A stretch of 64,000 bases of DNA from Gammaproteobacteria bacterium (GTDB lineage Bacteria; Pseudomonadota; Gammaproteobacteria; Magnimaribacterales; AG-339-G14), in assembly GCA_045564455.1 (NCBI GenBank), contig JBJLHG010000002.1, forward strand, positions 231,877 to 295,876, read 5' to 3'. The position numbers and the translations under genes are program-made. Of this stretch, positions 1 through 44,957 are shown piece after piece. Position 1 is the stretch's first letter; every line of letters starts with the position of its first letter. Below the pieces are notes generated by a model. That model was not told the origin of the DNA. It worked only from the letters and a program-made list of their open reading frames with translations, and made no database searches.

Positions 1-157
1 TTCGACTCAACATCTTCATTTTGGAATGGGGCAAACCGAAACTAAACTCAATCTTCCGTCTGGAAGACACGTTCTTCAATTAGTTTTAGGTGATAAATAT
101 CATGTGCCGCATCAGCCACCATTGACGTCCCAGAGAATCTTGGTAACTGTAGAGTAG
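1..157 (+). CDS. DUF4399 domain protein, C-terminal fragment (gene starts left of the window)
   Basis: Frame 2 is open from the window edge to TAG at 155-157. The tail HLHFGMGQTETKLNLPSGRHVLQLVLGDKYHVPHQPPLTSQRILVTVE fits the conserved C-terminal half of DUF4399 proteins (HLHFG.GQTE ... G.H.LQL.LGD..H.PH). Confidence 0.5.
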   Translation, partial: STQHLHFGMGQTETKLNLPSGRHVLQLVLGDKYHVPHQPPLTSQRILVTVE

Positions 158-231
158 AAACTTTGCCGAAAAAAAAATGATGGGAAAGTATTTAAAATAT
201 TTTTTCTAGCTTTATAAAGTATTAATTAGTT

Positions 232-237
232 TATAAT
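232..237 (+). promoter_or_regulatory. Candidate -10 hexamer TATAAT, which would place the transcription start at or near the A of the micro-ORF ATG (leaderless)
   Basis: Exact TATAAT lies 6 nt upstream of ATG 244, and there is no Shine-Dalgarno sequence in between. AT-rich background makes a chance hexamer likely, and I found no good -35. Confidence 0.2.
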
Positions 238-243
238 TGGTCT

Positions 244-291
244 ATGTGTGAATGTTGTGATTGCTGCGAGTGCACTTGTTGCACGAAGTAA
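244..291 (+). CDS. Polycysteine micro-ORF MCECCDCCECTCCTK (candidate Cys-responsive leader peptide for the downstream TauD-family gene)
   Basis: ATG 244, TAA 289-291. Eight of 15 codons are Cys (a TGT/TGC mix) interspersed with E/D/T. It lies in the 200-nt intergenic region, 67 nt upstream of and co-oriented with the TauD-like gene. Confidence 0.45.
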   Translation: MCECCDCCECTCCTK

Positions 292-358
292 AAATTTAAA
301 TTAGAAGAAACTAAACCATTGTTTTGGTTAACAGACTGATGGTAGAGTATTTTTTAAT

Positions 359-1225
359 ATGAATAAGTTCAGTCCAGATGCTTTTGAAAAAAAAGAGCTG
401 CCTTTTACAGTTAACAGACTTAGCCCTACTATTGGCGGTGAAATTTTAGGCATTGATTTATCCAAACCCCTAGATGCTAAAACAAAAGATTTAATCTATG
501 AGGCTTTATTGGTCTATAAAGTTATTTTTTTTAGGGATCAGAACATTTCTACAGAGCAACACATGGATTTTTCAAAGAATTTTGGAGAGTTAGAAATTCA
601 TCCTTTTGCTCCAAAAAAAGAGAGTTTCCCTGAGGTTCTGGTAATTTCTCACAATGAAAAAAGTAAAGGTAGAGAGAATACTTGGCATTCTGATGTTACT
701 TGGAGACAACAACCATCTCTTGGATCTGTATTAAGAATGATAGAGAAACCAGATCATGGAGGCGATACTTTATTTGCAGATATGTATGCTGCTTATGATG
801 GACTGAGCGATGAAGTAAAAGAAAAACTAGAAGGTGCTATAGCTGTTCATGACTTTGCAAATTTTAGAAATAGACTGATTAAGCAAGGAAAGTCGAATCG
901 TGAAATTGAAGCTTTCAACAAGGAATATCCTATGCCGGAACATCCAGTAATAAGAACGCACCCAGATACAAATAAAAAAGTTATATACGTAAATGCTGCA
1001 TTTACTCAATACATTAAAGGGTGGGATAAAGAGGAGTCAAAAGATATGTTAACTTTTCTTTATTCTACGGCATCAATACCAGAATATCAGTGTCGCTTTG
1101 CATGGCAAGATAATTCCATAGCGTTTTGGGATAACAGAGCATGTCAGCATTATGCAAACTCAGATTACTGGCCAAATATAAGGAAAGTAGAAAGAGTTAC
1201 AATTGTTGGTGATAGGCCTTATTAA
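359..1225 (+). CDS. tauD: Taurine/sulfonate alpha-ketoglutarate-dependent dioxygenase (TauD/TfdA family)
   Basis: Colinear with E. coli TauD: FGELEIHP, WHSDVTW (HxD iron ligands), GGDTLFADM, HPVIRTHP, WDNRACQHYANSDY (distal His), VTIVGDRP. Confidence 0.85.
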   Translation: MNKFSPDAFEKKELPFTVNRLSPTIGGEILGIDLSKPLDAKTKDLIYEALLVYKVIFFRDQNISTEQHMDFSKNFGELEIHPFAPKKESFPEVLVISHNEKSKGRENTWHSDVTWRQQPSLGSVLRMIEKPDHGGDTLFADMYAAYDGLSDEVKEKLEGAIAVHDFANFRNRLIKQGKSNREIEAFNKEYPMPEHPVIRTHPDTNKKVIYVNAAFTQYIKGWDKEESKDMLTFLYSTASIPEYQCRFAWQDNSIAFWDNRACQHYANSDYWPNIRKVERVTIVGDRPY

Positions 1226-1324
1226 GCCTTTAATTATTTATAACTTGAAACGAGAAAAAAAAAGAGGAGAATAGACTACCATTTTCCAATCAAATGAAAC
1301 TTTTAGAAGACTATTAAATTTTAA

Positions 1325-1726
1325 ATGAGATCACAACTATTCGGCGATAGATTTGCCATGACTTTGTCAGCAGCATGTGTCATCCATTGTTTTTTTGTTC
1401 CCTCTTTCCTCATTCTATCTTCAGGATTTCTTTCATTTTCTATAGACAACGAATTCATTCACAAAATGATCGTAATGATCGCCATTCCAGTAAGTATTTT
1501 TTCTTTTTCAGCGGGATATAAAAATCACAAAACTATTATGTCATTTCTGCCCTTGGGAATTATCGGACTTTTCGTGCTAAGTTTTGCCGTAGTCTTTGGT
1601 GAGGAAATTCTGGGTGAATTTATTGAAAAAGGCCTTACCTTAGTTGGCTCCATGTTGGTTGCATATTCGCACTTTAAAAACTATAGAGCATGCAAGAATG
1701 CTGATTGCAATTGCCACGAAGCATAA
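1325..1726 (+). CDS. MerC-domain-like small membrane protein with Cys pairs
   Basis: 133 aa with about 4 TM segments. Has AACVIHC in TM1 and a C-terminal CKNADCNCH. Family assignment is from memory only. Confidence 0.4.
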   Translation: MRSQLFGDRFAMTLSAACVIHCFFVPSFLILSSGFLSFSIDNEFIHKMIVMIAIPVSIFSFSAGYKNHKTIMSFLPLGIIGLFVLSFAVVFGEEILGEFIEKGLTLVGSMLVAYSHFKNYRACKNADCNCHEA

Positions 1727-1777
1727 AAAGAGCTTATTTTTTTACTATTTTCTAACTTCTCTCGTTAATGTATCAAT

Positions 1778-2158
1778 CTAAGCAATAAGATTTGAGCCCA
1801 TCATAAATAAAACAATAACTGATGGTGCCCATATAAAAGGTCTGACGTGTTTAAATCTATAAAGATCTACCATAGCGCCTAGCAGATAAACGACTCTTAA
1901 TCCCAACCAAATCTGAGCCAAAAGTAAATTATCCACTTCTAAAACTACAGATAAAACAGCAAAAGTTAAAAAAATAGGTAGCGTTTGTCTCAAATTTTCA
2001 CTTGCTAAAACCATTCTCTTTGAGAGATTGTTCTCATTAGAGACATCGCCGCCAGCAAAAGACCACTCAACGAAAGGTACTTTATTAAGCGAAAAACTCA
2101 TTCTTAAAAAAAGATGTAATAGATAAAAAACTCCAACATAATAAATTACTTCAACCAT
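1778..2158 (-). CDS. MAPEG family membrane protein
   Basis: The hydrophobic ~126-aa product is of MAPEG size and topology. I prefer the internal ATG at 2158, preceded by GGAGA, over the track start at 2227. Confidence 0.5.
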   Translation of the reverse strand: MVEVIYYVGVFYLLHLFLRMSFSLNKVPFVEWSFAGGDVSNENNLSKRMVLASENLRQTLPIFLTFAVLSVVLEVDNLLLAQIWLGLRVVYLLGAMVDLYRFKHVRPFIWAPSVIVLFMMGSNLIA

Positions 2159-2241
2159 AGCATTCTCCAATATTTTTTTAATGTTAAAGCCTTTGAGCAA
2201 AAATTTAAAGAAAATATATTCAACCAAGCTATAATTTACCC

Positions 2242-3153
2242 ATGGGGAATTATGATTCTATATTGAGCCCTGATGAGATTGCTCAATTAAGAGAGAAAAA
2301 AGATTGGGTTACTACTTGGACAGTTGTCTCCATGTGGTCTCAAATTTTTTTAGCTTTCTTTTTGTTTGCTGTATTTCCTAACCCATTTGTATTTATAGTC
2401 TCAGCTTTAATTGTTGGCGCGAAACAATTTGAAATGACTGTGCTCATGCACGATGGCGCACATGGCCTGATGTATAAAAACAGGAAGCTAAATGATTTCA
2501 TTTCTCAGTGGTTTTGTTCTTATCCGGTAATGACCGATACACTTCCGTATAGAAAGATTCATTCTCAACACCATAAATTTACAGAAACCGACCAAGATCC
2601 TGATCTTGGGTTAACCAAAGCTTTTCCAACTACAAATAAAAGTTTAATGAGAAAAGCTCTTAGAGATTTAAGTGGAATAGCTGGTATGAGAAGATATTTG
2701 GGAGCTTTTAAATCTGCCTGGGGTAGTAACTTAAGTTTGGTAGGTCACTTTAGGAGATTTTTTAAAAAACTTTATGGTTTTTTTACAACCAATGCAGTAA
2801 TTTTTTCAGTTTTATTTTTTACAGGAAACCCTTGGCTATACCTCTTGCTATGGTGGGTTCCAATGATTACTTTGTTTAGTTTCTTTTATAGAATTAGAAG
2901 CATTACTGAACACTCTGGAGTAGAAGGAGGAAATGATTTTAAAAATACCAGAACGACTTTAGTACCTTGGTATTTAGGATATTTTTTGGCGCCTCTAAAT
3001 GTGAACTTCCATATAGAGCACCATTTGTTTACTTTTTGTCCTTGGTATAATTTGCCAAAAGCTCATAAGCTTCTTGAACAAAAGGGTTATATTTCAGAAA
3101 TGGAAATTGCTCGAAGCTATAAAGAAGTTTACAAAAAAATCCTTATTCAATGA
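2242..3153 (+). CDS. Fatty acid desaturase family membrane protein
   Basis: Three histidine boxes (HDGAHG, HSQHHKF, HIEHHLF) and several TM segments. Confidence 0.85.
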   Translation: MGNYDSILSPDEIAQLREKKDWVTTWTVVSMWSQIFLAFFLFAVFPNPFVFIVSALIVGAKQFEMTVLMHDGAHGLMYKNRKLNDFISQWFCSYPVMTDTLPYRKIHSQHHKFTETDQDPDLGLTKAFPTTNKSLMRKALRDLSGIAGMRRYLGAFKSAWGSNLSLVGHFRRFFKKLYGFFTTNAVIFSVLFFTGNPWLYLLLWWVPMITLFSFFYRIRSITEHSGVEGGNDFKNTRTTLVPWYLGYFLAPLNVNFHIEHHLFTFCPWYNLPKAHKLLEQKGYISEMEIARSYKEVYKKILIQ

Positions 3154-3884
3154 TTGATTTATATTACGCTCCAACCCCGAATGGTTGGAAGATTTCAATT
3201 ATGCTTGAAGAGTGTGAATTGGATTATAAAGTCATCCCGATTAATTTAGGAAAGGGCGATCAATTTAAGCCAGAGTTCTTAAGAATTAGTCCTAATAATA
3301 GAATGCCTGCCATTGTTGATCACACCAATATTATAAATGGAGAAGCAATGAGTATTTTCGAGTCTGGAGCAATCTTGATGTATCTTGGAGAGCGAACTGG
3401 GCAGTTTTTTTCGCAGAAATCTCCTGAAAAAGAAAAAGTTTTGGAATGGCTATTCTGGCAAATAGGCGGATTAGGTCCAATGGCAGGCCAGGTAAGTCAT
3501 TTTGTAAACTATGCCCCAAATTTTCCAGGTGATCATTCTTATTCTGAAAAGCGATATAAAAATGAATATGATCGTTTGCTGGGAGTTATGGAAAGAATAT
3601 TAACAGAGCGAGAATATTTAGCTGGTGATTACTCCATTGCTGATATGGCTTCTTTCCCTTGGGTTACAGCTTATAAAAGATATGAAGTGGATCTAGACTC
3701 TTTTACCAACGTCAGAAGATGGTTTGATGCAATTAAAATGAGGCCGGCGGTAAGAAGGGGAATGGAAGTGGGTAAAGAACAGAGAAACTTTGGCAAAGGT
3801 ATTTCTAAAGAAAGCCTTAAGACAATGTTTAGTCAAGATGCTAAAAGCATAGCCAAAATGGCTGAAGATAAAGAAAATAAATAA
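3150..3884 (+). CDS. yfcG: Nu-class glutathione S-transferase / GSH-dependent disulfide reductase, YfcG-like
   Basis: Nearly colinear with E. coli YfcG: MIDLYYAPTPNGWKI, GKGDQFKPEFLRISPNNRMPAIVDH, FESGAILMYL, WLFWQIGGLGPM. Confidence 0.85.
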   Translation: MIDLYYAPTPNGWKISIMLEECELDYKVIPINLGKGDQFKPEFLRISPNNRMPAIVDHTNIINGEAMSIFESGAILMYLGERTGQFFSQKSPEKEKVLEWLFWQIGGLGPMAGQVSHFVNYAPNFPGDHSYSEKRYKNEYDRLLGVMERILTEREYLAGDYSIADMASFPWVTAYKRYEVDLDSFTNVRRWFDAIKMRPAVRRGMEVGKEQRNFGKGISKESLKTMFSQDAKSIAKMAEDKENK

Positions 3885-3887
3885 ACT

Positions 3888-4481
3888 TTATAGAAGTCCT
3901 TCTAATAGTTGTATACGATCATTTCCAAAAAACATATCGTTGTCATTTATAAAAAAAGTCGGAGAACCAAATCCACCTCTGTCCATTAATTCTTGAGTGT
4001 TATTAATCAATCTAGTCTTGGTTTTAGATTGGTTAATAAACTCAAAAAAAATATCTGGAGAAACATTAAACCTGCCTGCAACAGCAGATAAGAAATCATC
4101 TGAAGAAATATCTTTCCCATCACTCCAATACGATTTAAAAATAAATTCTAAATAAGATTCAATGTTCCCATTATCTATAAAATAAAAAGCTCCTCTCATA
4201 GCTCGAACACTATTAATAGGAAATATTTTTGGCCAATTTATAGTTATGTCACGGTATTGAGCCCAGTCCGCTAGGTCCTTTTGTGAATAATCAAGCTTTT
4301 CTTTTATTGGATTTTTTCGGCTTTCATAGACGCTTGGATTGATGGAATTAAAAATACCTCCAACAAGAATAGGTTTCCAAATAATTTTAAAATCTTTCCT
4401 TTCCATTAGGTCTAAAACACCCATAAATGAAAGATAAGTCCAAGGGCTACTGCAGTCTAAGAAATATTCTAATTTTTTCAT
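3888..4481 (-). CDS. 2-hydroxychromene-2-carboxylate isomerase / DsbA-like (kappa-GST type) protein
   Basis: DsbA-like fold. N-terminal YFLDCSSPWTY and C-terminal GGFGSPTFFI...FFGNDR are typical of the HCCA isomerase family. Confidence 0.75.
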   Translation of the reverse strand: MKKLEYFLDCSSPWTYLSFMGVLDLMERKDFKIIWKPILVGGIFNSINPSVYESRKNPIKEKLDYSQKDLADWAQYRDITINWPKIFPINSVRAMRGAFYFIDNGNIESYLEFIFKSYWSDGKDISSDDFLSAVAGRFNVSPDIFFEFINQSKTKTRLINNTQELMDRGGFGSPTFFINDNDMFFGNDRIQLLEGLL

Positions 4482-4499
4482 TAGTAAAATTTTATTCGG

Positions 4500-5249
4500 C
4501 TATTCCAAAATAATTTTGACACCACCCAAAGAGATTTCGTTGTTTTGCATGACTTCCATTTCCAAGGCATTTTCTATAATTTTTTCTTTATTAAACGATT
4601 TAACAATAAAAGCACTTACGCCTTCTCCTCTGCCATCAGTATCATCTACAAAAATTATTTTTGACCGATCGAGTTGAATAGTTATTTCATCTGAGGAAGA
4701 TCTCTTTACACCCAAAGCTTTTTCCCATTTCGAGCAAAGATTTGAAGGGTTGTCAGATTGCATGATCACACCAGAAAGGCAATCAACTAATTTAAGATTA
4801 ATATCCTTTTCCCAGTTTGTTCCAGCCCAAAGCCACGCATTCGCTGGCTCCATTTTATCCAATGATAAAATTGCTCCTCCAACTTGCTTGGGATGCAAGT
4901 GAATGGTCCTCGCACGAATTTCTTCTTCTCTTCTGTCTCCCTGCCAAACAATCTCAATATCGGAAGAATTAATTCTTTCTTCTTCTTTCTCAAAACATTC
5001 TACATCCACGATCACCATATAACCGCCTTCACCATTTCTTTTTTTTAAAAATCTTTCAGCAGTCGTATTTTTCTGAACGGGCATGACTATTTCAAAAAAA
5101 GTATCGTTGAGGGGGATGAGAACATTTTCCAAACCAAAATTAATTAGACCGGCATCATGATAGGTTTCTTTGAGATCTAAAAGATTACAAATCTGACTGG
5201 CTAATTTATCCCTTTCCTCGCTAACAAAAACTAACTGTCTAATTCTCAT
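4500..5249 (-). CDS. VOC / glyoxalase-like domain protein
   Basis: Starts at MRIRQLVFVSE... (ATG 5249); the 22-codon upstream extension in the track looks spurious. Has glyoxalase-like repeats (FFEIVMP, GGYMVIVDV). Confidence 0.5.
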   Translation of the reverse strand: MRIRQLVFVSEERDKLASQICNLLDLKETYHDAGLINFGLENVLIPLNDTFFEIVMPVQKNTTAERFLKKRNGEGGYMVIVDVECFEKEEERINSSDIEIVWQGDRREEEIRARTIHLHPKQVGGAILSLDKMEPANAWLWAGTNWEKDINLKLVDCLSGVIMQSDNPSNLCSKWEKALGVKRSSSDEITIQLDRSKIIFVDDTDGRGEGVSAFIVKSFNKEKIIENALEMEVMQNNEISLGGVKIILE

Positions 5250-5290
5250 AATCTTTGTAGAATAACAAATAATAAACAAGTGAGAAATAA

Positions 5291-6106
5291 ATGATGGAAT
5301 TAGATACAGGCACAACTCATCTATTGGCTAAAAAAGAAAATGGAGTGGGTTACTTAATTATGAATAGACCGGAAGCAAGAAATGCAATGTCTATGGAAAT
5401 GAATGAGGCGCTGCAAAAGAAAATCGCTGAATTTGAGCTAGATAACGATATTCGATGTATTGTTTTAACTGGCGCTGGGAAAGGTTTTTGTGCCGGTGGA
5501 GATGTAAAAGGCATGGCATCTAAGGATAGCAACGATGAGAATACAATTGATAAAGCCATTCATAGGCAAAGAGATCACCAAAGAGGCACTTCAGGGAAAT
5601 TATTTAAAATGCCAAAACCTACAATAGCCTCAATACCAGGCCCAGCAGCGGGAGCAGGACTTTCTTATGCATTGTCTTGTGATCTAAGAATAATGTCTTC
5701 TGAAGCATTCATGACCACAGCTTTTGCAAAAGTAGGATTTTCTGGAGATTACGGTGGAACTTATTTCATGTCCAAGTTAATCGGTTCTGCTAAAGCAAGA
5801 GAACTATATTTCCTTTCCGAAAGAATATCTGCAAAGGAGGCTTTAAATTTAGGACTTACAAATTGGATAGAAGAACCTGAAGAACTAGAGCTTAAAACTA
5901 AAGAATTAGCAGAAAAATTAGCATCCGGCCCAGCAGTCGCATATAGATATATGAAAGAAAATCTCAATAGAGCAATGAGTGGAGAAATAGATGAATGTCT
6001 AGACCTAGAGGCAACCCATCATGTTCATTGTGGTGAAACTATGGATCATAAAAACGCTGTTAAAGCATTTGTTGAGAAAAAGACTCCAAAGTTTCAAGGA
6101 AAATAA
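5291..6106 (+). CDS. Enoyl-CoA hydratase/isomerase (crotonase) family protein
   Basis: LIMNRPEARNAM and the oxyanion-hole motif LTGAGKGFCAGGDV. Full-length crotonase fold. Confidence 0.85.
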   Translation: MMELDTGTTHLLAKKENGVGYLIMNRPEARNAMSMEMNEALQKKIAEFELDNDIRCIVLTGAGKGFCAGGDVKGMASKDSNDENTIDKAIHRQRDHQRGTSGKLFKMPKPTIASIPGPAAGAGLSYALSCDLRIMSSEAFMTTAFAKVGFSGDYGGTYFMSKLIGSAKARELYFLSERISAKEALNLGLTNWIEEPEELELKTKELAEKLASGPAVAYRYMKENLNRAMSGEIDECLDLEATHHVHCGETMDHKNAVKAFVEKKTPKFQGK

Positions 6107-6127
6107 GAAATCAAATATCATCATATT

Positions 6128-6964
6128 TTGCGTAATTTATTAGTTTTATTAGTCTTTTCTTTCTCTCTTTTTATTGCGGCAAATGAAGATGAAAAAGATT
6201 TCATCGAATTATCTTATGGAGATTCAGAAAAACAGAAAATAGATTTTTATCCGGGCACTTCAAAAAAAGTATTAGTTTGGATTCATGGAGGCGGCTGGCT
6301 ATACGGAGATAAAAGAGCTTCTAGATGGATAGAAAGATTGGAAAAATTCTTTCCAATAAATGAAGATTTAAACATCTTTATGGTTGGTTATCGTCTTGGA
6401 AGAAACACCGCCCCGCAAGCAGCAGAAGACGTTCTTTGTGCTTATAAGTTCATAGAGCAAGAAATCTCTAAAAGGGATCTTTCATCTGAAGACATTACTA
6501 TAATGGGCTTCAGCTCAGGAGGTCACCTAGCGTTGATGACAGGCTTAATGAATAGCAAAGGCAGTGGGCATGAATGCATTGCTAAAAAATCACCTGCGGC
6601 AATTATTAATTTTTTTGGAATAACAGACATAGAGAAAAATTATTATTTTTTGAAAGAAAATAATGCATTTTTAAACTTTGTTAGTTGGTGGGTGGACTCA
6701 GAAGAAAGTATTTTAAAGATATCAAATAAATATTCACCTGTTAATTTAGTTAGTGAAAATTCTCCACCAACAATAACAGTTCATGGCGATAAGGACACTT
6801 TAGTTGGTTATGATCAAGCGCTTATTCTAAAAGAGATAATGGGGGATAAAAATCAATTGGTGACTGTAGAAGGAGGCGGACACTGGAGATTTTCTGAGGA
6901 TCAAAATAAAAAAATTAAGACTGAAATAGATAGATTCATGAAAAAGAATATTTTTAAAAATTAA
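6128..6964 (+). CDS. Secreted alpha/beta hydrolase (esterase/lipase, HGGG type)
   Basis: TTG start, signal peptide, HGGGW oxyanion motif, GFSSGG nucleophile elbow, C-terminal HGDKD. Confidence 0.8.
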   Translation: MRNLLVLLVFSFSLFIAANEDEKDFIELSYGDSEKQKIDFYPGTSKKVLVWIHGGGWLYGDKRASRWIERLEKFFPINEDLNIFMVGYRLGRNTAPQAAEDVLCAYKFIEQEISKRDLSSEDITIMGFSSGGHLALMTGLMNSKGSGHECIAKKSPAAIINFFGITDIEKNYYFLKENNAFLNFVSWWVDSEESILKISNKYSPVNLVSENSPPTITVHGDKDTLVGYDQALILKEIMGDKNQLVTVEGGGHWRFSEDQNKKIKTEIDRFMKKNIFKN

Positions 6965-43858: not shown

Positions 43859-44957
43859 CTGAGCTTAAAAAAGTTTTTATTGTTTCGACATATCTTCTAT
43901 CTGGGAATAAGAAACCATCATGGCCTTGATATGATTCAATATTTACATAACTGACATTTTTTTTAGCAGCGACTAGAGAATTAACTATTTCTTTAGATCG
44001 TTTGGGGGAAAACCTCCAATCGGATGAAAAAGAAATTATGAGAAAATCAGACTTAGTTTTATTTAAAGTAGATACTAAATCTCCTTCAAAATATTTAGCG
44101 GGATCAAAATAATCCAATGCTTTGGTCATAAGAAGATATGTGTGAGCATCAAATTTATCTGAAAAATTATCAGCTTGATATCTAAGGTAACTTTCTACTT
44201 CAAATTCTACGTCGTATCCATATTCTATTTTGTCTTTTTTTAAATCTCTATCAAATTTTTCTTTCATAACTTCTTCAGACAAATAAGTTATGTGACCTAA
44301 CATTCTTGCCAAACCCAAACCTCTTTTTGGATGATGTGTTCCTTTTTCAAAATCTGGATCGGTAACTATTGACTGACGTGCTACTTCATTAAATGCTATG
44401 TTTTGAGCGCTTAATTTTGGAGCAGCAGCAATCACAACAGCCTTCTTTATTAGATCCGGATAATCGATGGACCATTGAAGAGCTTGCATTCCACCTAAGC
44501 TTCCTCCTGCAACAGAGTGCCAGTAATTAATTTCTAAGAATTCTCTTAAGAGATTTTGGCTGTTTATCCAATCTTTGACTGTAACTAGGGGAAAATCTTT
44601 TCCATACTTTTCACCAGTTTCAGGATTCAAACTTGAAGGTCCCGTAGAACCATGACATCCGCCTAAATTATTAAGAGAAACTATAAAAAATTTATTTGTA
44701 TCAAAAGCTTTATCTGGACCAATTAATTCGTTCCACCATCCAGCTTTTTTTTCATCTTCTTCAGAAAATCCCGCAGCATGATGATTTCCGCTAAGCGCAT
44801 GACAAATCAAAATAGCATTGTCTTTATTCTTAGAAAGAGAACCATAAGTTTCATAAATCAGATCAAAGCTTTTTAAGCTTTTTCCTGACTCTAAAACAAA
44901 TTCATCCTTATAAGAAAAAGTTTCGGGTTTTATAAAACCTAAAGATTTACTGCTCAT
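43851..44957 (-). CDS. metX: Homoserine O-acyl(acetyl/succinyl)transferase MetX
   Basis: CHALSGNHH, GGSLGGMQAL nucleophile elbow, and C-terminal GHDGFL. Confidence 0.95.
   Translation of the reverse strand: MSSKSLGFIKPETFSYKDEFVLESGKSLKSFDLIYETYGSLSKNKDNAILICHALSGNHHAAGFSEEDEKKAGWWNELIGPDKAFDTNKFFIVSLNNLGGCHGSTGPSSLNPETGEKYGKDFPLVTVKDWINSQNLLREFLEINYWHSVAGGSLGGMQALQWSIDYPDLIKKAVVIAAAPKLSAQNIAFNEVARQSIVTDPDFEKGTHHPKRGLGLARMLGHITYLSEEVMKEKFDRDLKKDKIEYGYDVEFEVESYLRYQADNFSDKFDAHTYLLMTKALDYFDPAKYFEGDLVSTLNKTKSDFLIISFSSDWRFSPKRSKEIVNSLVAAKKNVSYVNIESYQGHDGFLFPDRRYVETIKTFLSSDV

What the first reader, a model, noticed from the sequence alone, without database searches (positions are those of the whole stretch)
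232..358. Polycysteine micro-ORF (MCECCDCCECTCCTK) upstream of a TauD-family sulfonate dioxygenase: candidate cysteine-sensing leader peptide
Seen in the sequence:
- ATG at 244 and TAA at 289-291 bound a 15-codon ORF. Eight codons are Cys (mixed TGT/TGC), separated by E, D, E and T. That composition is essentially impossible by chance in AT-rich spacer DNA.
- The ORF is co-oriented with, and 67 nt upstream of, a gene colinear with E. coli TauD, which releases sulfite from taurine and is a sulfur-starvation function.
- There is no Shine-Dalgarno sequence. An exact TATAAT at 232-237 would start transcription at about the ATG, which would make the ORF leaderless.

Established knowledge:
- Ribosome-stalling leader peptides rich in the regulatory amino acid control his, trp, leu, thr, phe and ilv operons in proteobacteria.
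- Polycysteine leaderless short ORFs acting as Cys-responsive attenuators have been described in mycobacteria.
- I know of no such element described for proteobacterial sulfonate-utilisation genes.

Inference:
- Stalling at Cys codons when Cys-tRNA is scarce would turn on sulfur scavenging.
- The spacer offers weak competing pairings. CTAAACCA (311-318) can pair imperfectly with TGGTAGAG (340-347), which overlaps the probable tauD ribosome-binding region and is followed by TATTTTTT (348-355). The local hairpin AACCA (314-318)/TGGTT (325-329) would compete with it.
- A further 5-bp hairpin, GTGCA/TGCAC (270-284), lies inside the micro-ORF.
- None of these is strong by eye, so the mechanism is open (transcription attenuation, ribosome-binding-site occlusion, or something else).

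Alternative: a tiny metal-binding (metallothionein-like) peptide. A MerC-like Cys-rich membrane protein lies 1 kb downstream.
Basis: partly seen in the sequence, partly recalled or inferred. Interest (0 to 1): 0.8.

Follow-up and report, generated by a model that had tools for sequence, protein, structure and literature searches.

The report
Leaderless polycysteine micro-gene family in SAR86
The 15-codon, 8-cysteine mini-gene is real and belongs to a conserved, many-copy family in the abundant ocean bacterium SAR86, but it sits in front of many unrelated genes, so it is not a dedicated switch for the sulfonate enzyme TauD.

Summary
Observation confirmed. Window 244-291 encodes MCECCDCCECTCCTK, and TATAAT (232-237) ends 6 nt before the ATG.

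The ORF is not a one-off.
- 89 of 91 unique contexts have a -10 box, almost always exactly 6 nt from the ATG. None has a Shine-Dalgarno sequence.
- The copies sit before at least 16 different co-oriented gene families. These include NosD-like, lipoprotein, HXXEE, esterase, DedA, MerC and SMR genes.
- Marine viral contigs carry Shine-Dalgarno-led ORFs with the same cysteine spacing.

The TauD link is incidental.
- tauD in other SAR86 species lacks the ORF.
- Syntenic relatives have DUF4399-ORF-MerC.
- Strains with an identical TauD protein have deleted the 150-nt segment that carries the ORF.
- SAR86 reportedly has no sulfite reductase to use TauD's sulfite.

Best reading (about 0.45): a translated leaderless leader ORF that ties downstream expression to Cys-tRNA supply. 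This resembles the mycobacterial "Cys ribulon", but with non-cysteine targets and probably positive coupling.

Main rival (about 0.3): the peptide is itself a metallothionein- or phytochelatin-like thiol peptide.

I found no description of the family in the searchable literature.

The parts
2..157 (+). 3' end of a DUF4399 (PF14347) gene, the upstream neighbour
   Evidence: The frame runs to TAG at 155-157. The full gene is called as PF14347 in contigs that carry the identical locus.
156..162 (+). Direct repeat AGAAACT, copy 1. Left edge of the 150-nt presence/absence segment.
   Evidence: repeat D2: 153-162 and 303-312, spacing 150.
163..312 (+). 150-nt segment that carries the promoter and the micro-ORF. 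It is present in the window, L048 and L053. It is absent from L046, L051, L052 and L054, which encode the identical TauD protein.
   Evidence: Alignment of the DUF4399-tauD spacers and contig list. Scaffolds L047, L049 and L050 have N-gaps exactly at this site.
177..209 (+). Remnant of the first 10 codons of a 487-aa gene (ATGATGGGAAAGTATTTAAAATATTTTTTC, then TAG). The gene is intact between DUF4399 and the micro-ORF in L162.
   Evidence: In L162 the ORF at 5160-6623 starts MMGKYLKYFFGA. I read it by eye as M20-peptidase-like and did not scan it.
232..237 (+). -10 promoter hexamer TATAAT, 6 nt upstream of the ATG. This places the transcription start at or next to A244, which would make the mRNA leaderless.
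   Evidence: Family-wide, 89 of 91 unique contexts have at least 5/6 of TATAAT, and 86 of 91 have it at exactly 6 nt, against 3% of random ATGs. The 6-nt spacer itself varies freely.
244..291 (+). Leaderless micro-ORF encoding MCECCDCCECTCCTK plus stop
   Evidence: There are 119 family members in marine metagenomes. An orthologue in L162 differs by two synonymous Cys-codon changes and T14P.
294..364 (+). AU-rich hairpin. The 5' arm (294-312) starts just after the micro-ORF stop codon and pairs with 346-364, which holds the tauD ribosome-binding region and AUG. An inner hairpin lies at 315-343.
   Evidence: z = -2.8. Mean pairing of the tauD initiation region is 0.78. It falls to 0.54 with a ribosome on the micro-ORF stop codon, stays at 0.79 with a ribosome stalled at Cys12/13, and is 0.52 in the deletion allele. 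Seen at this locus only.
306..312 (+). Direct repeat AGAAACT, copy 2. Right edge of the 150-nt segment.
359..1225 (+). TauD/TfdA-family Fe(II)/2-oxoglutarate dioxygenase, the first gene downstream
   Evidence: Pfam PF02668, E = 1.1e-68.
1325..1726 (+). MerC-family membrane protein, the second gene downstream. In syntenic relatives MerC is the gene that directly follows the micro-ORF.
   Evidence: Pfam PF03203, E = 1.5e-23. Synteny. MerC profile search.

Best explanation
**What it is.** The micro-ORF is a translated, leaderless 15-codon leader ORF. Its own -10 box starts the mRNA at the AUG. It is one copy of a portable module, made of a -10 box plus the polycysteine ORF, that SAR86 carries at many loci.

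**How it probably works.** Ribosomes load on the 5' AUG and must decode eight Cys codons before they reach the stop codon. Only then can they hand over to the gene behind. At about half of the family's loci this happens by termination-reinitiation: the next start codon lies from 4 nt inside the ORF (overlapping ATGA) to 18 nt downstream of its stop. In this window it would happen by melting the post-stop hairpin that covers the tauD start. Downstream expression is therefore tied to charged tRNA-Cys, that is, to the cell's cysteine/thiol status. SAR86 depends on external reduced sulfur, so this would be an important signal.

**Direction.** The anatomy favours positive coupling (cysteine sufficient, downstream gene on).

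**Status of each step.**
- Shown: the ORF, the promoter geometry, coding-level conservation, the multi-locus distribution, co-orientation, and the coupling distances.
- Inferred: translation itself, the dependence on tRNA-Cys, and the sign of regulation.
For: - **Leaderless design is conserved.** The -10 box is invariant. The 6-nt spacer is free to vary and there is no Shine-Dalgarno sequence.
- **Coding-level selection.**
  - Codons 12 and 13 (Cys) and 15 (Lys) lay outside my search pattern, yet codons 12 and 13 were Cys in all 119 short ORFs recovered and codon 15 was Lys in the 15-residue majority (all 90 unique 15-aa copies; a few variants differ in length or C-terminus).
  - Cys codons switch between TGT and TGC.
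  - TAA, TAG and TGA all serve as the stop codon.
  - Nucleotide diversity at codon positions 1 and 2 is 0.01-0.03 in the ORF, against 0.18-0.52 in the gene behind it in the four largest groups (0.00 against 0.08 in a fifth). Codons 2-10 were partly fixed by the search pattern.
- **Linked to a downstream gene.** All 106 copies with enough flanking sequence are followed by a co-oriented ORF starting within about 370 nt, across at least 16 gene families.
- **Coupling distances.** About 50 of those 106 have that start from 4 nt inside the micro-ORF to 18 nt beyond its stop. Examples are the ATGA overlap at lipoprotein genes and 11-13 nt at NosD-like genes.
- **It looks like an add-on to a leaderless gene.** In lineages without the ORF, the NosD-like gene has its own TACAAT, 7 nt, then ATG.
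- **Window-specific structure.** The post-stop hairpin covers the tauD initiation region. In the model it is relieved by a terminating ribosome but not by one stalled at Cys12/13.
- **Precedent.** Leaderless polycysteine short ORFs act as Cys-responsive cis regulators at several mycobacterial loci (10.1101/834739).
- **Physiology.** SAR86 lacks sulfate assimilation and obtains cysteine from glutathione and similar sources (PMC3358033; PMC11582366).
Against: - No transcription-start, ribosome-profiling or expression data were available. Translation and regulation are inferred.
- Downstream genes show no cysteine or sulfur theme. Their Cys content is ordinary.
- No structure linking the ORF to the downstream start is shared across loci. 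The window's hairpin is AU-rich and is seen only at this locus.
- A mere codon sensor does not need a fixed Cys spacing, only polar spacer residues, a conserved C-terminal Lys, or position-specific synonymous codon choice.
- ORFs with the same Cys spacing occur in viral contigs as ordinary Shine-Dalgarno-led small genes.
- The ORF is dispensable. Strains with an identical TauD lack it. NosD-like orthologues at 81-85% identity lack it.
Confidence: 0.45

Rival explanations
1. The product matters, not the act of translation. The 14-15-residue peptide, (CxC)3-x-CC-x-K with acidic spacers, would be a ribosomally made thiolate peptide. It would work as a micro-metallothionein or phytochelatin-like binder of Cu, Zn, Cd or Hg, or as a thiol/redox buffer. 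It would be expressed from a strong promoter at many loci, often next to MerC-type thiophilic-metal transporters. Downstream genes would simply share its transcript.
For: - **The Cys spacing is specific.** In viral contigs, the pattern M-C-x-CC-x-CC-x-C gave 44 stand-alone ORFs of at most 18 aa, 33 of them with a Shine-Dalgarno sequence and nearly all with polar spacers. Two control spacings gave 0 and 2 Shine-Dalgarno-led ORFs, with hydrophobic, repeat-like spacers.
- **Non-Cys residues are constrained.** Spacers are D, E or N. Positions 11 and 14 hold only S, T, A, N, D or P. Lys15 is conserved.
- **Codon choice.** G/C-ending codons (TGC, GAG, AAG) are used in the 3' half against the genome's bias.
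- **MerC association.** 26 of 119 loci carry a MerC gene, all on the same strand. Control SAR86 sequence (162 kb) has none. The ORF sits directly before or after MerC in several contexts.
- **Neighbourhood.** My reading of the neighbouring genes is that they lean towards metal, thiol and detoxification functions: NosD-like, DUF4399, GST, MAPEG, GFA and glyoxalase. This was not tested statistically.
- **From my own knowledge.** CxC and CC motifs define metallothioneins. Alternating carboxylate and thiol groups define phytochelatins.
Against: - No stand-alone copy was seen. Every copy with enough flank heads a co-oriented gene, often at coupling distance. This is unexpected for an independent small gene.
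- Copies are scattered singly in front of different genes, not amplified in tandem.
- Three of four MerC paralogue contexts reached through the protein lack the ORF.
- Several large context groups have no MerC on the contig.
- I know of no functional free peptide this short and this Cys-rich in bacteria.
- Many strongly expressed copies, each more than half cysteine, would be costly for an organism that cannot assimilate sulfate.
- Metal binding was not testable here.
Confidence: 0.3
2. The unit is mainly a portable expression module: a -10 box plus a leaderless start. It spreads or is retained because it supplies a promoter and ribosome loading to genes placed behind it in a rearrangement-prone island. 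The polycysteine coding would be inherited baggage with little function of its own.
For: - The conserved unit is only about 66 nt, from about -18 to the stop codon. Its flanks are unrelated between contexts.
- The genes behind it differ between close relatives: tauD here, MerC in syntenic relatives.
- Presence is all-or-none between lineages.
- It is gained or lost as a discrete block in the window's own population.
Against: - It does not explain why every Cys codon, the reading frame and a stop codon are kept across species whose flanks have diverged beyond alignment.
- It does not explain why phages carry ORFs with the same Cys spacing behind their own Shine-Dalgarno sequences.
- No terminal inverted repeats were found and no second copy in the window. 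No transposase or integrase was noticed among the neighbouring genes examined.
- At the window locus the polymorphism is a deletion, not an insertion.
Confidence: 0.12
3. The ORF is a cysteine-starvation attenuator dedicated to tauD. Stalling at Cys codons when cysteine is scarce would switch on sulfonate scavenging.
For: - Leaderless polycysteine ORF directly upstream of tauD.
- The mycobacterial precedent, in which stalling relieves attenuation (10.1101/834739).
- The tauD start region is sequestered in a hairpin.
Against: - tauD in 24 other SAR86 genomes has no such ORF.
- The ORF's ancestral partner at this locus is MerC, not tauD.
- The ORF has been deleted in strains with an identical TauD.
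- The arm that pairs with the tauD start lies after the stop codon. In the model, a ribosome stalled in the Cys tract leaves it intact: pairing 0.79, against 0.54 for a terminating ribosome.
- No terminator is present.
- SAR86 lacks sulfite reductase, so TauD is unlikely to serve sulfur assimilation (PMC11582366).
Confidence: 0.08

Closest known systems
Mycobacterial polycysteine leaderless short ORFs, the 'Cys ribulon' (Canestrari et al. 2020, bioRxiv 10.1101/834739)
   Same: - The transcript starts at the AUG of a very short ORF rich in consecutive Cys codons.
- The ORF is unannotated.
- It is the first cistron, ahead of co-oriented genes.
- Several independent loci per genome share the design, which suggests a ribosome-mediated regulon.
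   Different: - Here the host is a streamlined marine gammaproteobacterium.
- All copies share one nearly fixed peptide, MC[DEN]CCDCCEC.CC.K, rather than independently evolved Cys runs.
- Downstream genes are not cysteine-metabolic.
- No RNA duplex overlaps the Cys tract.
- Many copies sit at reinitiation distance from the next gene, which suggests positive rather than relief-type control.
- Relatives with the same Cys spacing exist in phage contigs.
Classical ribosome-mediated attenuation leader peptides of proteobacteria (hisL, trpL, leuL, pheL, thrL, ilvL). From my own knowledge.
   Same: A 14-30-codon ORF packed with codons for one amino acid, upstream of and co-oriented with the regulated genes.
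   Different: - Those leaders have a Shine-Dalgarno sequence and a 5' UTR.
- They regulate biosynthesis of the same amino acid.
- They act through alternative terminator/antiterminator hairpins followed by a U-run.
- None of these features is found here.
Metallothioneins and phytochelatins. From my own knowledge.
   Same: - Very high Cys content.
- CxC and CC motifs and no aromatic residues.
- Acidic or basic polar spacers.
- Proximity to thiophilic-metal genes such as MerC.
   Different: - The bacterial metallothioneins I know of are about 50-55 residues long.
- Phytochelatins are made by an enzyme, not the ribosome.
- A 15-residue ribosomal version is unknown to me.
- No metal-binding data exist for this peptide.
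Short ORFs that confer translational coupling on promoterless or start-site-poor downstream genes, for example ORF-11 at integron attI1. From my own knowledge; not checked in the literature tools.
   Same: A tiny upstream ORF next to a promoter delivers ribosomes to whatever gene is placed behind it. The downstream cargo is variable.
   Different: There is no integrase or recombination site here, and the conserved polycysteine coding has no counterpart.

Membership tests
Mycobacterial-type polycysteine leaderless short-ORF attenuators (Cys ribulon) | The transcript begins at the start codon of the short ORF (leaderless) | tested here: met
   Met at sequence level only. A -10 hexamer lies exactly 6 nt from the ATG in 86 of 91 unique contexts, against 3% of random ATGs. 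The spacer is not conserved and there is no Shine-Dalgarno sequence. No 5'-end mapping was available.
Mycobacterial-type polycysteine leaderless short-ORF attenuators (Cys ribulon) | At least two consecutive Cys codons in the short ORF | tested here: met
   Three CC pairs and eight Cys in 15 codons. All are kept in the family.
Mycobacterial-type polycysteine leaderless short-ORF attenuators (Cys ribulon) | First cistron of an operon, co-oriented with annotated downstream genes, at several loci | tested here: met
   All 106 copies with enough flank have a co-oriented downstream ORF, across at least 16 gene families.
Mycobacterial-type polycysteine leaderless short-ORF attenuators (Cys ribulon) | Downstream operons encode cysteine-associated functions | tested here: not met
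   Pfam finds NosD-like, HXXEE, BD-FAE esterase, VTT/DedA, MerC, MORN, SMR, CPDase, cupin, TauD and DIOX_N. None is a cysteine biosynthesis gene.
Mycobacterial-type polycysteine leaderless short-ORF attenuators (Cys ribulon) | An RNA duplex sequesters the downstream ribosome-binding site and is blocked by a ribosome stalled in the Cys tract | tested here: not met
   Mean pairing of the downstream initiation region with the ORF is 0.00-0.13 in most contexts, with two small groups higher at 0.23 and 0.42. In the window the partner arm lies after the stop codon and is untouched by a ribosome stalled at Cys12/13 in the model.
Mycobacterial-type polycysteine leaderless short-ORF attenuators (Cys ribulon) | Downstream expression responds to cysteine supply and depends on the ORF's start and Cys codons | not testable with these tools
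   Needs reporter, proteomic or ribosome-profiling experiments.
Classical transcription-attenuation leader peptides (his, trp, leu type) | Alternative terminator and antiterminator hairpins with a U-run between the leader ORF and the first gene | tested here: not met
   No terminator-like sites in 1-1500. The fold shows one AU-rich hairpin that covers the tauD start and has no G+C-rich stem or U-tract. No Rfam leader family matched.
Classical transcription-attenuation leader peptides (his, trp, leu type) | The regulated operon makes the amino acid whose codons fill the leader | tested here: not met
Metallothionein-like Cys-rich metal-binding peptides | High Cys content in CxC and CC motifs, no aromatic residues | tested here: met
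   The peptide is M-(CEC)(CDC)(CEC)-T-CC-T-K. The spacing is specific compared with control spacings.
Metallothionein-like Cys-rich metal-binding peptides | The peptide accumulates and binds metal ions in thiolate clusters | not testable with these tools
   Needs peptide detection and metal titration.
RiPP precursor peptide | Leader plus core peptide, with maturase genes (radical SAM, cyclodehydratase, LanM and the like) nearby | tested here: not met
   15 residues leave no room for a leader. No maturase family appeared among the downstream-gene representatives scanned with Pfam or the gene tables of protein-anchored loci that I looked at.
MITE or insertion-sequence-like mobile element | Terminal inverted repeats, target-site duplication, several near-identical copies that include the flanks | tested here: not met
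   No terminal inverted repeat at the ends of the 150-nt segment. No second copy in the window. Similarity between copies stops at about -18 and at the stop codon. The AGAAACT repeats mark a deletion.

The most novel reading that the evidence does not exclude
The peptide itself is functional. It would be a 14-15-residue ribosomally made thiolate peptide with a fixed C-x-CC-x-CC-x-C-x-CC spacing, a gene-encoded counterpart of phytochelatin or the smallest metallothionein. SAR86 (acidic version, leaderless) and marine phages (basic version, Shine-Dalgarno-led) would share it. It would buffer thiophilic metals or thiol redox state, possibly together with MerC-type transporters. Because it is the first cistron, it would also gate the genes behind it.
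Probability: 0.3. Interest if true: 0.9.

Novelty: new variant of a known kind. Interest (0 to 1): 0.78.

Why it matters
SAR86 makes up a few percent of surface-ocean bacteria. It has a streamlined genome, which I take (own knowledge) to imply few regulatory proteins, and it cannot assimilate sulfate.

- **If it is a sensor.** A conserved, multi-locus, ribosome-read cysteine sensor would be the first "ribulon"-type regulon that I know of outside mycobacteria. It would show how streamlined ocean bacteria coordinate genes without dedicated regulators. It would also give a direct handle on their thiol and sulfur physiology.
- **If the peptide is the product.** It would be a new class of ultra-short gene-encoded thiol peptide, shared with marine phages. 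That bears on trace-metal (Cu, Hg, Cd, Zn) and thiol cycling in seawater.
- **For annotation, either way.** This 48-nt gene is invisible to gene callers. It is already corrupting public protein sets: NosD-like proteins carry a false N-terminus that is the micro-ORF read in the wrong frame.
- **For microevolution.** The locus shows stepwise deletion in a natural population.

Tried and rejected
- **Chance ORF.** Rejected by the statistics and by the family.
- **Off-frame artefact of a decayed gene.** The +1 frame reads VNVVIAASALVARSKNLN*. Gene callers use this frame at NosD-like loci. It is rejected because variable sites fall on third positions of the Cys frame and because the +1 frame joins the next gene only at some spacer lengths (gaps of 4, 11, 12 and 13 nt).
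- **Known RNA family.** None in 1-3000 at E up to 10 apart from spurious eukaryotic hits.
- **Intrinsic terminator or attenuator.** None.
- **Shared RNA structure between the ORF and the downstream start.** Absent.
- **Conservation upstream of tauD orthologues.** Absent. Those genes follow a gene I read by eye as HIT-like, or one I read as acyl-CoA-synthetase-like, and the closest relatives have a GGGAGAA Shine-Dalgarno sequence.
- **Mobile element with inverted repeats.** Not found.
- **RiPP precursor.** No maturases among the neighbouring genes examined.
- **Shine-Dalgarno loss as a mark of coupling.** Uninformative. Only about 25% of window genes show a Shine-Dalgarno-like sequence by a crude count.
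- **Cys-rich downstream proteins.** No; 0-2% Cys, except MerC at 4.4%.
- **Cultured phage genomes.** The regions of Methylophilales phage Melnitz-1 (EXVC043M) and Pelagibacter phage HTVC008M that weakly match the viral contigs contain no such ORF.
- **tRNA-Cys gene in the window.** None; the window has no tRNA genes.
- **Literature.** Searches for the peptide strings and for SAR86 with cysteine or leaderless found no description.
Full report
**1.

- Window 244-291 reads ATG TGT GAA TGT TGT GAT TGC TGC GAG TGC ACT TGT TGC ACG AAG TAA, which is MCECCDCCECTCCTK*.
- TATAAT lies at 232-237, 6 nt before the ATG, and there is no Shine-Dalgarno sequence.
- The next gene (359-1225) is a TauD/TfdA dioxygenase (PF02668, 1e-68). 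It is followed by a MerC-family gene (1325-1726). Beyond that lie MAPEG, fatty-acid desaturase, GST and DsbA-like genes.
- Upstream, a DUF4399 gene ends at 157.
- TGY codons are 2.1% of codons summed over three reading frames of the + strand. My own binomial arithmetic on that figure puts 8 of 13 internal codons at about 6e-6 for the whole window.
- The only other Cys-dense stretches have 5 Cys in 15. One (44439-44466, minus strand) is just an off-frame reading of AVVIAAA inside a 368-aa ORF that I read by eye as metX.
- No Rfam family and no terminator-like site overlaps the region.

**2. Organism and the tauD link**

- The window's TauD is 69-89% identical to TauD of SAR86 genomes, including the isolate HIMB1674.
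- In all 24 of those loci tauD sits in a different neighbourhood. It lies behind a gene I read by eye as HIT-like, or one I read as acyl-CoA-synthetase-like. The closest relatives have a GGGAGAA Shine-Dalgarno sequence. None has a Cys-rich ORF.
- The SAR86 literature adds that these genomes lack sulfate assimilation (PMC3358033) and sulfite reductase. Those authors therefore doubt that TauD serves sulfur acquisition (PMC11582366).

**3. A polymorphism inside one population**

- Contigs encoding the identical TauD protein fall into two classes.
  - The window, L048 and L053 have a 201-nt DUF4399-tauD spacer that contains the ORF.
  - L046, L051, L052 and L054 have a 51-nt spacer without it.
  - Three scaffolds have N-gaps exactly at this site.
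- The difference is a clean 150-nt block (163-312) bounded by the direct repeat AGAAACT at 156-162 and 306-312.
- L162 resolves the direction. Its TauD is 98% identical.
  - It has DUF4399, then a 487-aa gene (M20-peptidase-like by eye), then the promoter and ORF, then tauD.
  - Window 177-209 (ATGATGGGAAAGTATTTAAAATATTTTTTC, then TAG) is the stump of that gene's first ten codons.
- The series is therefore: L162 type, then window type (peptidase deleted), then the 51-nt allele (ORF and promoter deleted).
- The ORF is older than its absence, and it is dispensable in some strains.

**4. The ORF is one member of a large family**

Of these, 119 are ORFs of 14-17 codons: MC[DE]CCDCCEC[S/T/A/N/D]CC[S/A/D/P/T]K, in low-GC marine contigs.
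- The parts that my pattern did not force are conserved.
  - Cys12 and Cys13 are present in all 119.
  - Lys15 is conserved in the 15-residue majority, using both AAG and AAA.
  - The length is nearly fixed.
  - A stop codon follows, and it may be TAA (66), TGA (15) or TAG (9) among the 90 unique 15-aa copies.
  - Ser11 uses both TCN and AGC codons.
- A copy reached through a MerC protein anchor, not through the pattern, reads MCNCCDCCECSCCSK. Position 3 therefore tolerates D, E or N.
- I compared orthologous groups whose flanks have diverged beyond alignment.

| Region | Nucleotide diversity |
|---|---|
| -10 hexamer | about 0 |
| 6 nt between the -10 box and the ATG | 0.5-0.8 |
| ORF, codon positions 1 and 2 | 0.01-0.03 |
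| ORF, codon position 3 | 0.06-0.22 |
| Downstream gene, position 3 (four largest groups; 0.22 in a fifth) | 0.37-0.50 |

- This is the signature of a translated ORF. It carries some extra constraint at the nucleotide level.
  - Codons 2 and 4 are TGT in 96% of copies.
  - Codons 7, 8, 12 and 13 are TGC in 83-98%.
  - Codon 9 is GAG in 97%, although the genome prefers GAA.
- Ascertainment caveat: codons 2-10 were fixed at the amino-acid level by the search pattern.

**5. The leaderless design is conserved**

- In 89 of 91 unique upstream contexts the best -10 hexamer matches TATAAT at 5/6 or better (TATAAT 50 times, TATACT 34 times).
- In 86 of 91 it ends exactly 6 nt before the ATG.
- Only 3% of random ATGs in the window meet the same criterion.
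- No Shine-Dalgarno sequence is present. A start at the A of the ATG is therefore the designed geometry. It has not been measured.

**6. What lies behind the ORF**

- All 106 copies with enough flank are followed by a co-oriented ORF. These fall into at least 16 families.

| Downstream gene family | Copies |
|---|---|
| NosD-like beta-helix | 31 |
| Lipoprotein of unknown function | 16 |
| HXXEE | 15 |
| BD-FAE esterase | 8 |
| DedA/VTT | 8 |
| MerC | 6 |
| MORN | 4 |
| SMR | 4 |
| CPDase | 4 |
| ChrR-type cupin | 2 |
| TauD | 1 |
| DIOX_N | 1 |
| OGFr_N | 1 |
| DUF4177 | 1 |

- Two further small groups have no Pfam match.
- There is no cysteine or sulfur-assimilation theme. Cys content of the products is ordinary.
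- About half of the copies sit at coupling distance from the next start codon: an ATGA overlap at the lipoprotein genes and 11-13 A-rich nucleotides at the NosD-like genes.
- Where the spacer is longer, no shared structure links the ORF to the downstream start.

**7. The locus in relatives**

- Contigs syntenic with the window (DUF4399 71-87% and GST 86-88% identical) read DUF4399, ORF, MerC, further genes, GST, DsbA (L191, L213, L247, L269).
- The ORF's place after DUF4399 is therefore ancestral. tauD is a lineage-specific arrival between the ORF and MerC.
- A MerC profile finds MerC in 26 of 119 ORF loci, always on the same strand. It finds none in 162 kb of control SAR86 loci.
- Of four MerC paralogue contexts reached through the protein, one has the ORF. 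The MerC link is real but partial.

**8. Unbiased presence or absence**

- NosD-like orthologues at 86-99% identity carry an intact ORF (L463-L472).
- Orthologues at 81-85% identity have none. Instead DUF4399 lies upstream, and in L459-L462 the gene has its own TACAAT, 7 nt, then ATG.
- I saw no decayed intermediates. The module is intact or absent, as if it were added to, or removed from, a gene that is itself leaderless.
- A few other window genes also show leaderless geometry: 5 of 69, against 2.7% of random ATGs.

**9. Phage relatives**

- A looser scan of viral contigs (M-C-x-CC-x-CC-x-C) gave 100 stretches. Of these, 44 are stand-alone ORFs of at most 18 aa, such as MCSCCKCCNCNCC, MCKCCKCCSCTCC, MCKCCKCCTCTCPECN and MCNCCDCCDCGCGCKS.
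- 33 of the 44 have a Shine-Dalgarno-like sequence. They are packed between phage genes in at least six contexts. One sits directly before genes I read by eye as IscU- and IscA-like.
- Two control spacings with the same information content gave 0 and 2 Shine-Dalgarno-led short ORFs. Those had hydrophobic, repeat-like spacers. The Cys spacing is therefore specific.
- The contigs are distantly related to marine myoviruses (Melnitz, HTVC008M, P-TIM68). The matching regions of two isolates do not contain the ORF.
- The acidic SAR86 version is absent from viral contigs.

**10. Mechanism at this locus**

- The leaderless transcript folds so that 294-312, right after the stop codon, pairs with 346-364, the tauD ribosome-binding region and AUG. 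The spacer alone has z = -2.8.
- Modelled pairing of the tauD initiation region:

| State | Mean pairing |
|---|---|
| Free transcript | 0.78 |
| Ribosome stalled at Cys12/13 | 0.79 |
| Ribosome on the stop codon | 0.54 |
| Deletion allele | 0.52 |

- Together with the reinitiation distances elsewhere, this favours one rule: a ribosome that finishes the ORF turns the next gene on. Under that rule cysteine shortage would lower downstream expression, not raise it.
- This is inference from AU-rich pairings at a single locus. The sign of regulation remains open.

**11. Weighing the explanations**

- For a cis-acting, translation-read cysteine sensor:
  - the size class of the ORF;
  - the leaderless first-cistron position;
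  - 100% co-orientation with a downstream gene;
  - the coupling distances;
  - the scattered one-per-operon distribution;
  - the all-or-none add-on pattern;
  - the mycobacterial precedent;
  - SAR86's dependence on external reduced sulfur.
- For a functional peptide:
  - the specific and invariant Cys spacing;
  - polar-only spacers and the conserved Lys;
  - the codon choice;
  - the phage versions, which look like ordinary small genes;
  - the MerC and metal/thiol neighbourhood.
The first two are not mutually exclusive.

**12. Novelty**

- Searches of the held literature for the peptide strings, and for SAR86 with cysteine or leaderless, found no description.
- The closest known system is the mycobacterial Cys ribulon. 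This family shares its architecture but fails two of its features: cysteine-related targets, and a duplex overlapping the Cys tract.
- I file it as a new variant of a known kind, with a real chance of being something new if the peptide is the active part.

Noticed in passing
L056-L155 (viral contigs), e.g. L060:10272, L056:9181, L074:2997: A family of 13-16-codon ORFs led by a Shine-Dalgarno sequence, with the spacing M-C-x-CC-x-CC-x-C-x-CC and basic or neutral spacers (MCSCCKCCNCNCC, MCKCCKCCTCTCPECN and others). They sit between genes in several kinds of marine phage contigs. Control Cys spacings do not give such ORFs.
   Followed up: partly
L067:3577-3621 and downstream 3630-4359: In one viral contig the polycysteine ORF (MCKCCKCCNCTCCE) lies directly upstream of genes I read by eye as IscU- and IscA-like Fe-S assembly genes. 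No family search was run.
   Followed up: no
window 177-209; L162:5160-6623: The window keeps the first 10 codons of a 487-aa gene (M20-peptidase-like by eye) that is intact in the close relative L162. Together with the 150-nt deletion alleles this gives a three-step deletion series at one locus in a natural SAR86 population.
   Followed up: yes
P0001, P0002, P0012 (public protein sets); L170, L186 loci: Gene callers extend NosD-like proteins upstream through the +1 frame of the micro-ORF, giving false N-termini such as MIVAIAASAPAAQSKNLKK. One such cluster stands for 1224 member sequences.
   Followed up: yes
L459-L462:1460-1503; L455, L458: In lineages without the micro-ORF the NosD-like gene is preceded by DUF4399. 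In L459-L462 it has its own TACAAT, 7 nt, then ATG, which suggests the gene itself is leaderless. In the window, 5 of 69 genes show similar geometry, for example the desaturase at 2242.
   Followed up: partly
HXXEE loci, e.g. L201, L253, L156 (about 25-80 nt after the micro-ORF): A second short ORF of about 18-20 codons (MNQNFGGSRRTTFRFLYR, MKLYFGEFRRGPAESLSCCI) lies between the polycysteine ORF and the HXXEE gene. In some members (e.g. L156) its stop overlaps the HXXEE start. Three related loci lack it. An AT-rich inverted repeat, ATATTAG...CTAATAT, follows the polycysteine ORF's stop codon.
   Followed up: no
L213 and L269, about 40-65 nt after the micro-ORF stop: A near-perfect palindrome, TAACTCT-A-AGAGTTA, overlaps a TATAAT-like hexamer upstream of MerC. 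It could be an operator and a separate MerC promoter.
   Followed up: no
L181, L192, 5-70 nt after the micro-ORF stop: By eye, a terminator-like element follows the micro-ORF: a nested hairpin (AAACAAAG...CTTTGTTT around CAGCCGTT/AACGGTG) and then a T-rich run. It could be a true terminator, or an attenuator that a ribosome at the stop codon would mask. It was not folded or scanned.
   Followed up: no
window 1-5400; L455, L456, L458, L269, L171: The micro-ORF loci lie in a variable island with many glutathione-, thiol- and detoxification-type genes (GST, MAPEG, GFA, glyoxalase/VOC, DsbA-like, MsrAB) and small membrane proteins (MerC, SMR, HXXEE, DedA). Gene content differs between close relatives.
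   Followed up: partly
window 171-193 and 330-352: A 23-nt direct repeat at 78% identity (TGATGGGAAAGTATTT and TGATGGTAGAGTATTT). The start of the peptidase stump resembles the region just upstream of tauD. The cause is unknown.
   Followed up: no
window 44439-44466 (minus strand): A CCDCCC stretch that is only an off-frame reading of AVVIAAA inside a 368-aa ORF I read by eye as metX (homoserine O-acetyltransferase). It is a useful control for how Ala/Val-rich coding sequence mimics Cys runs.
   Followed up: yes
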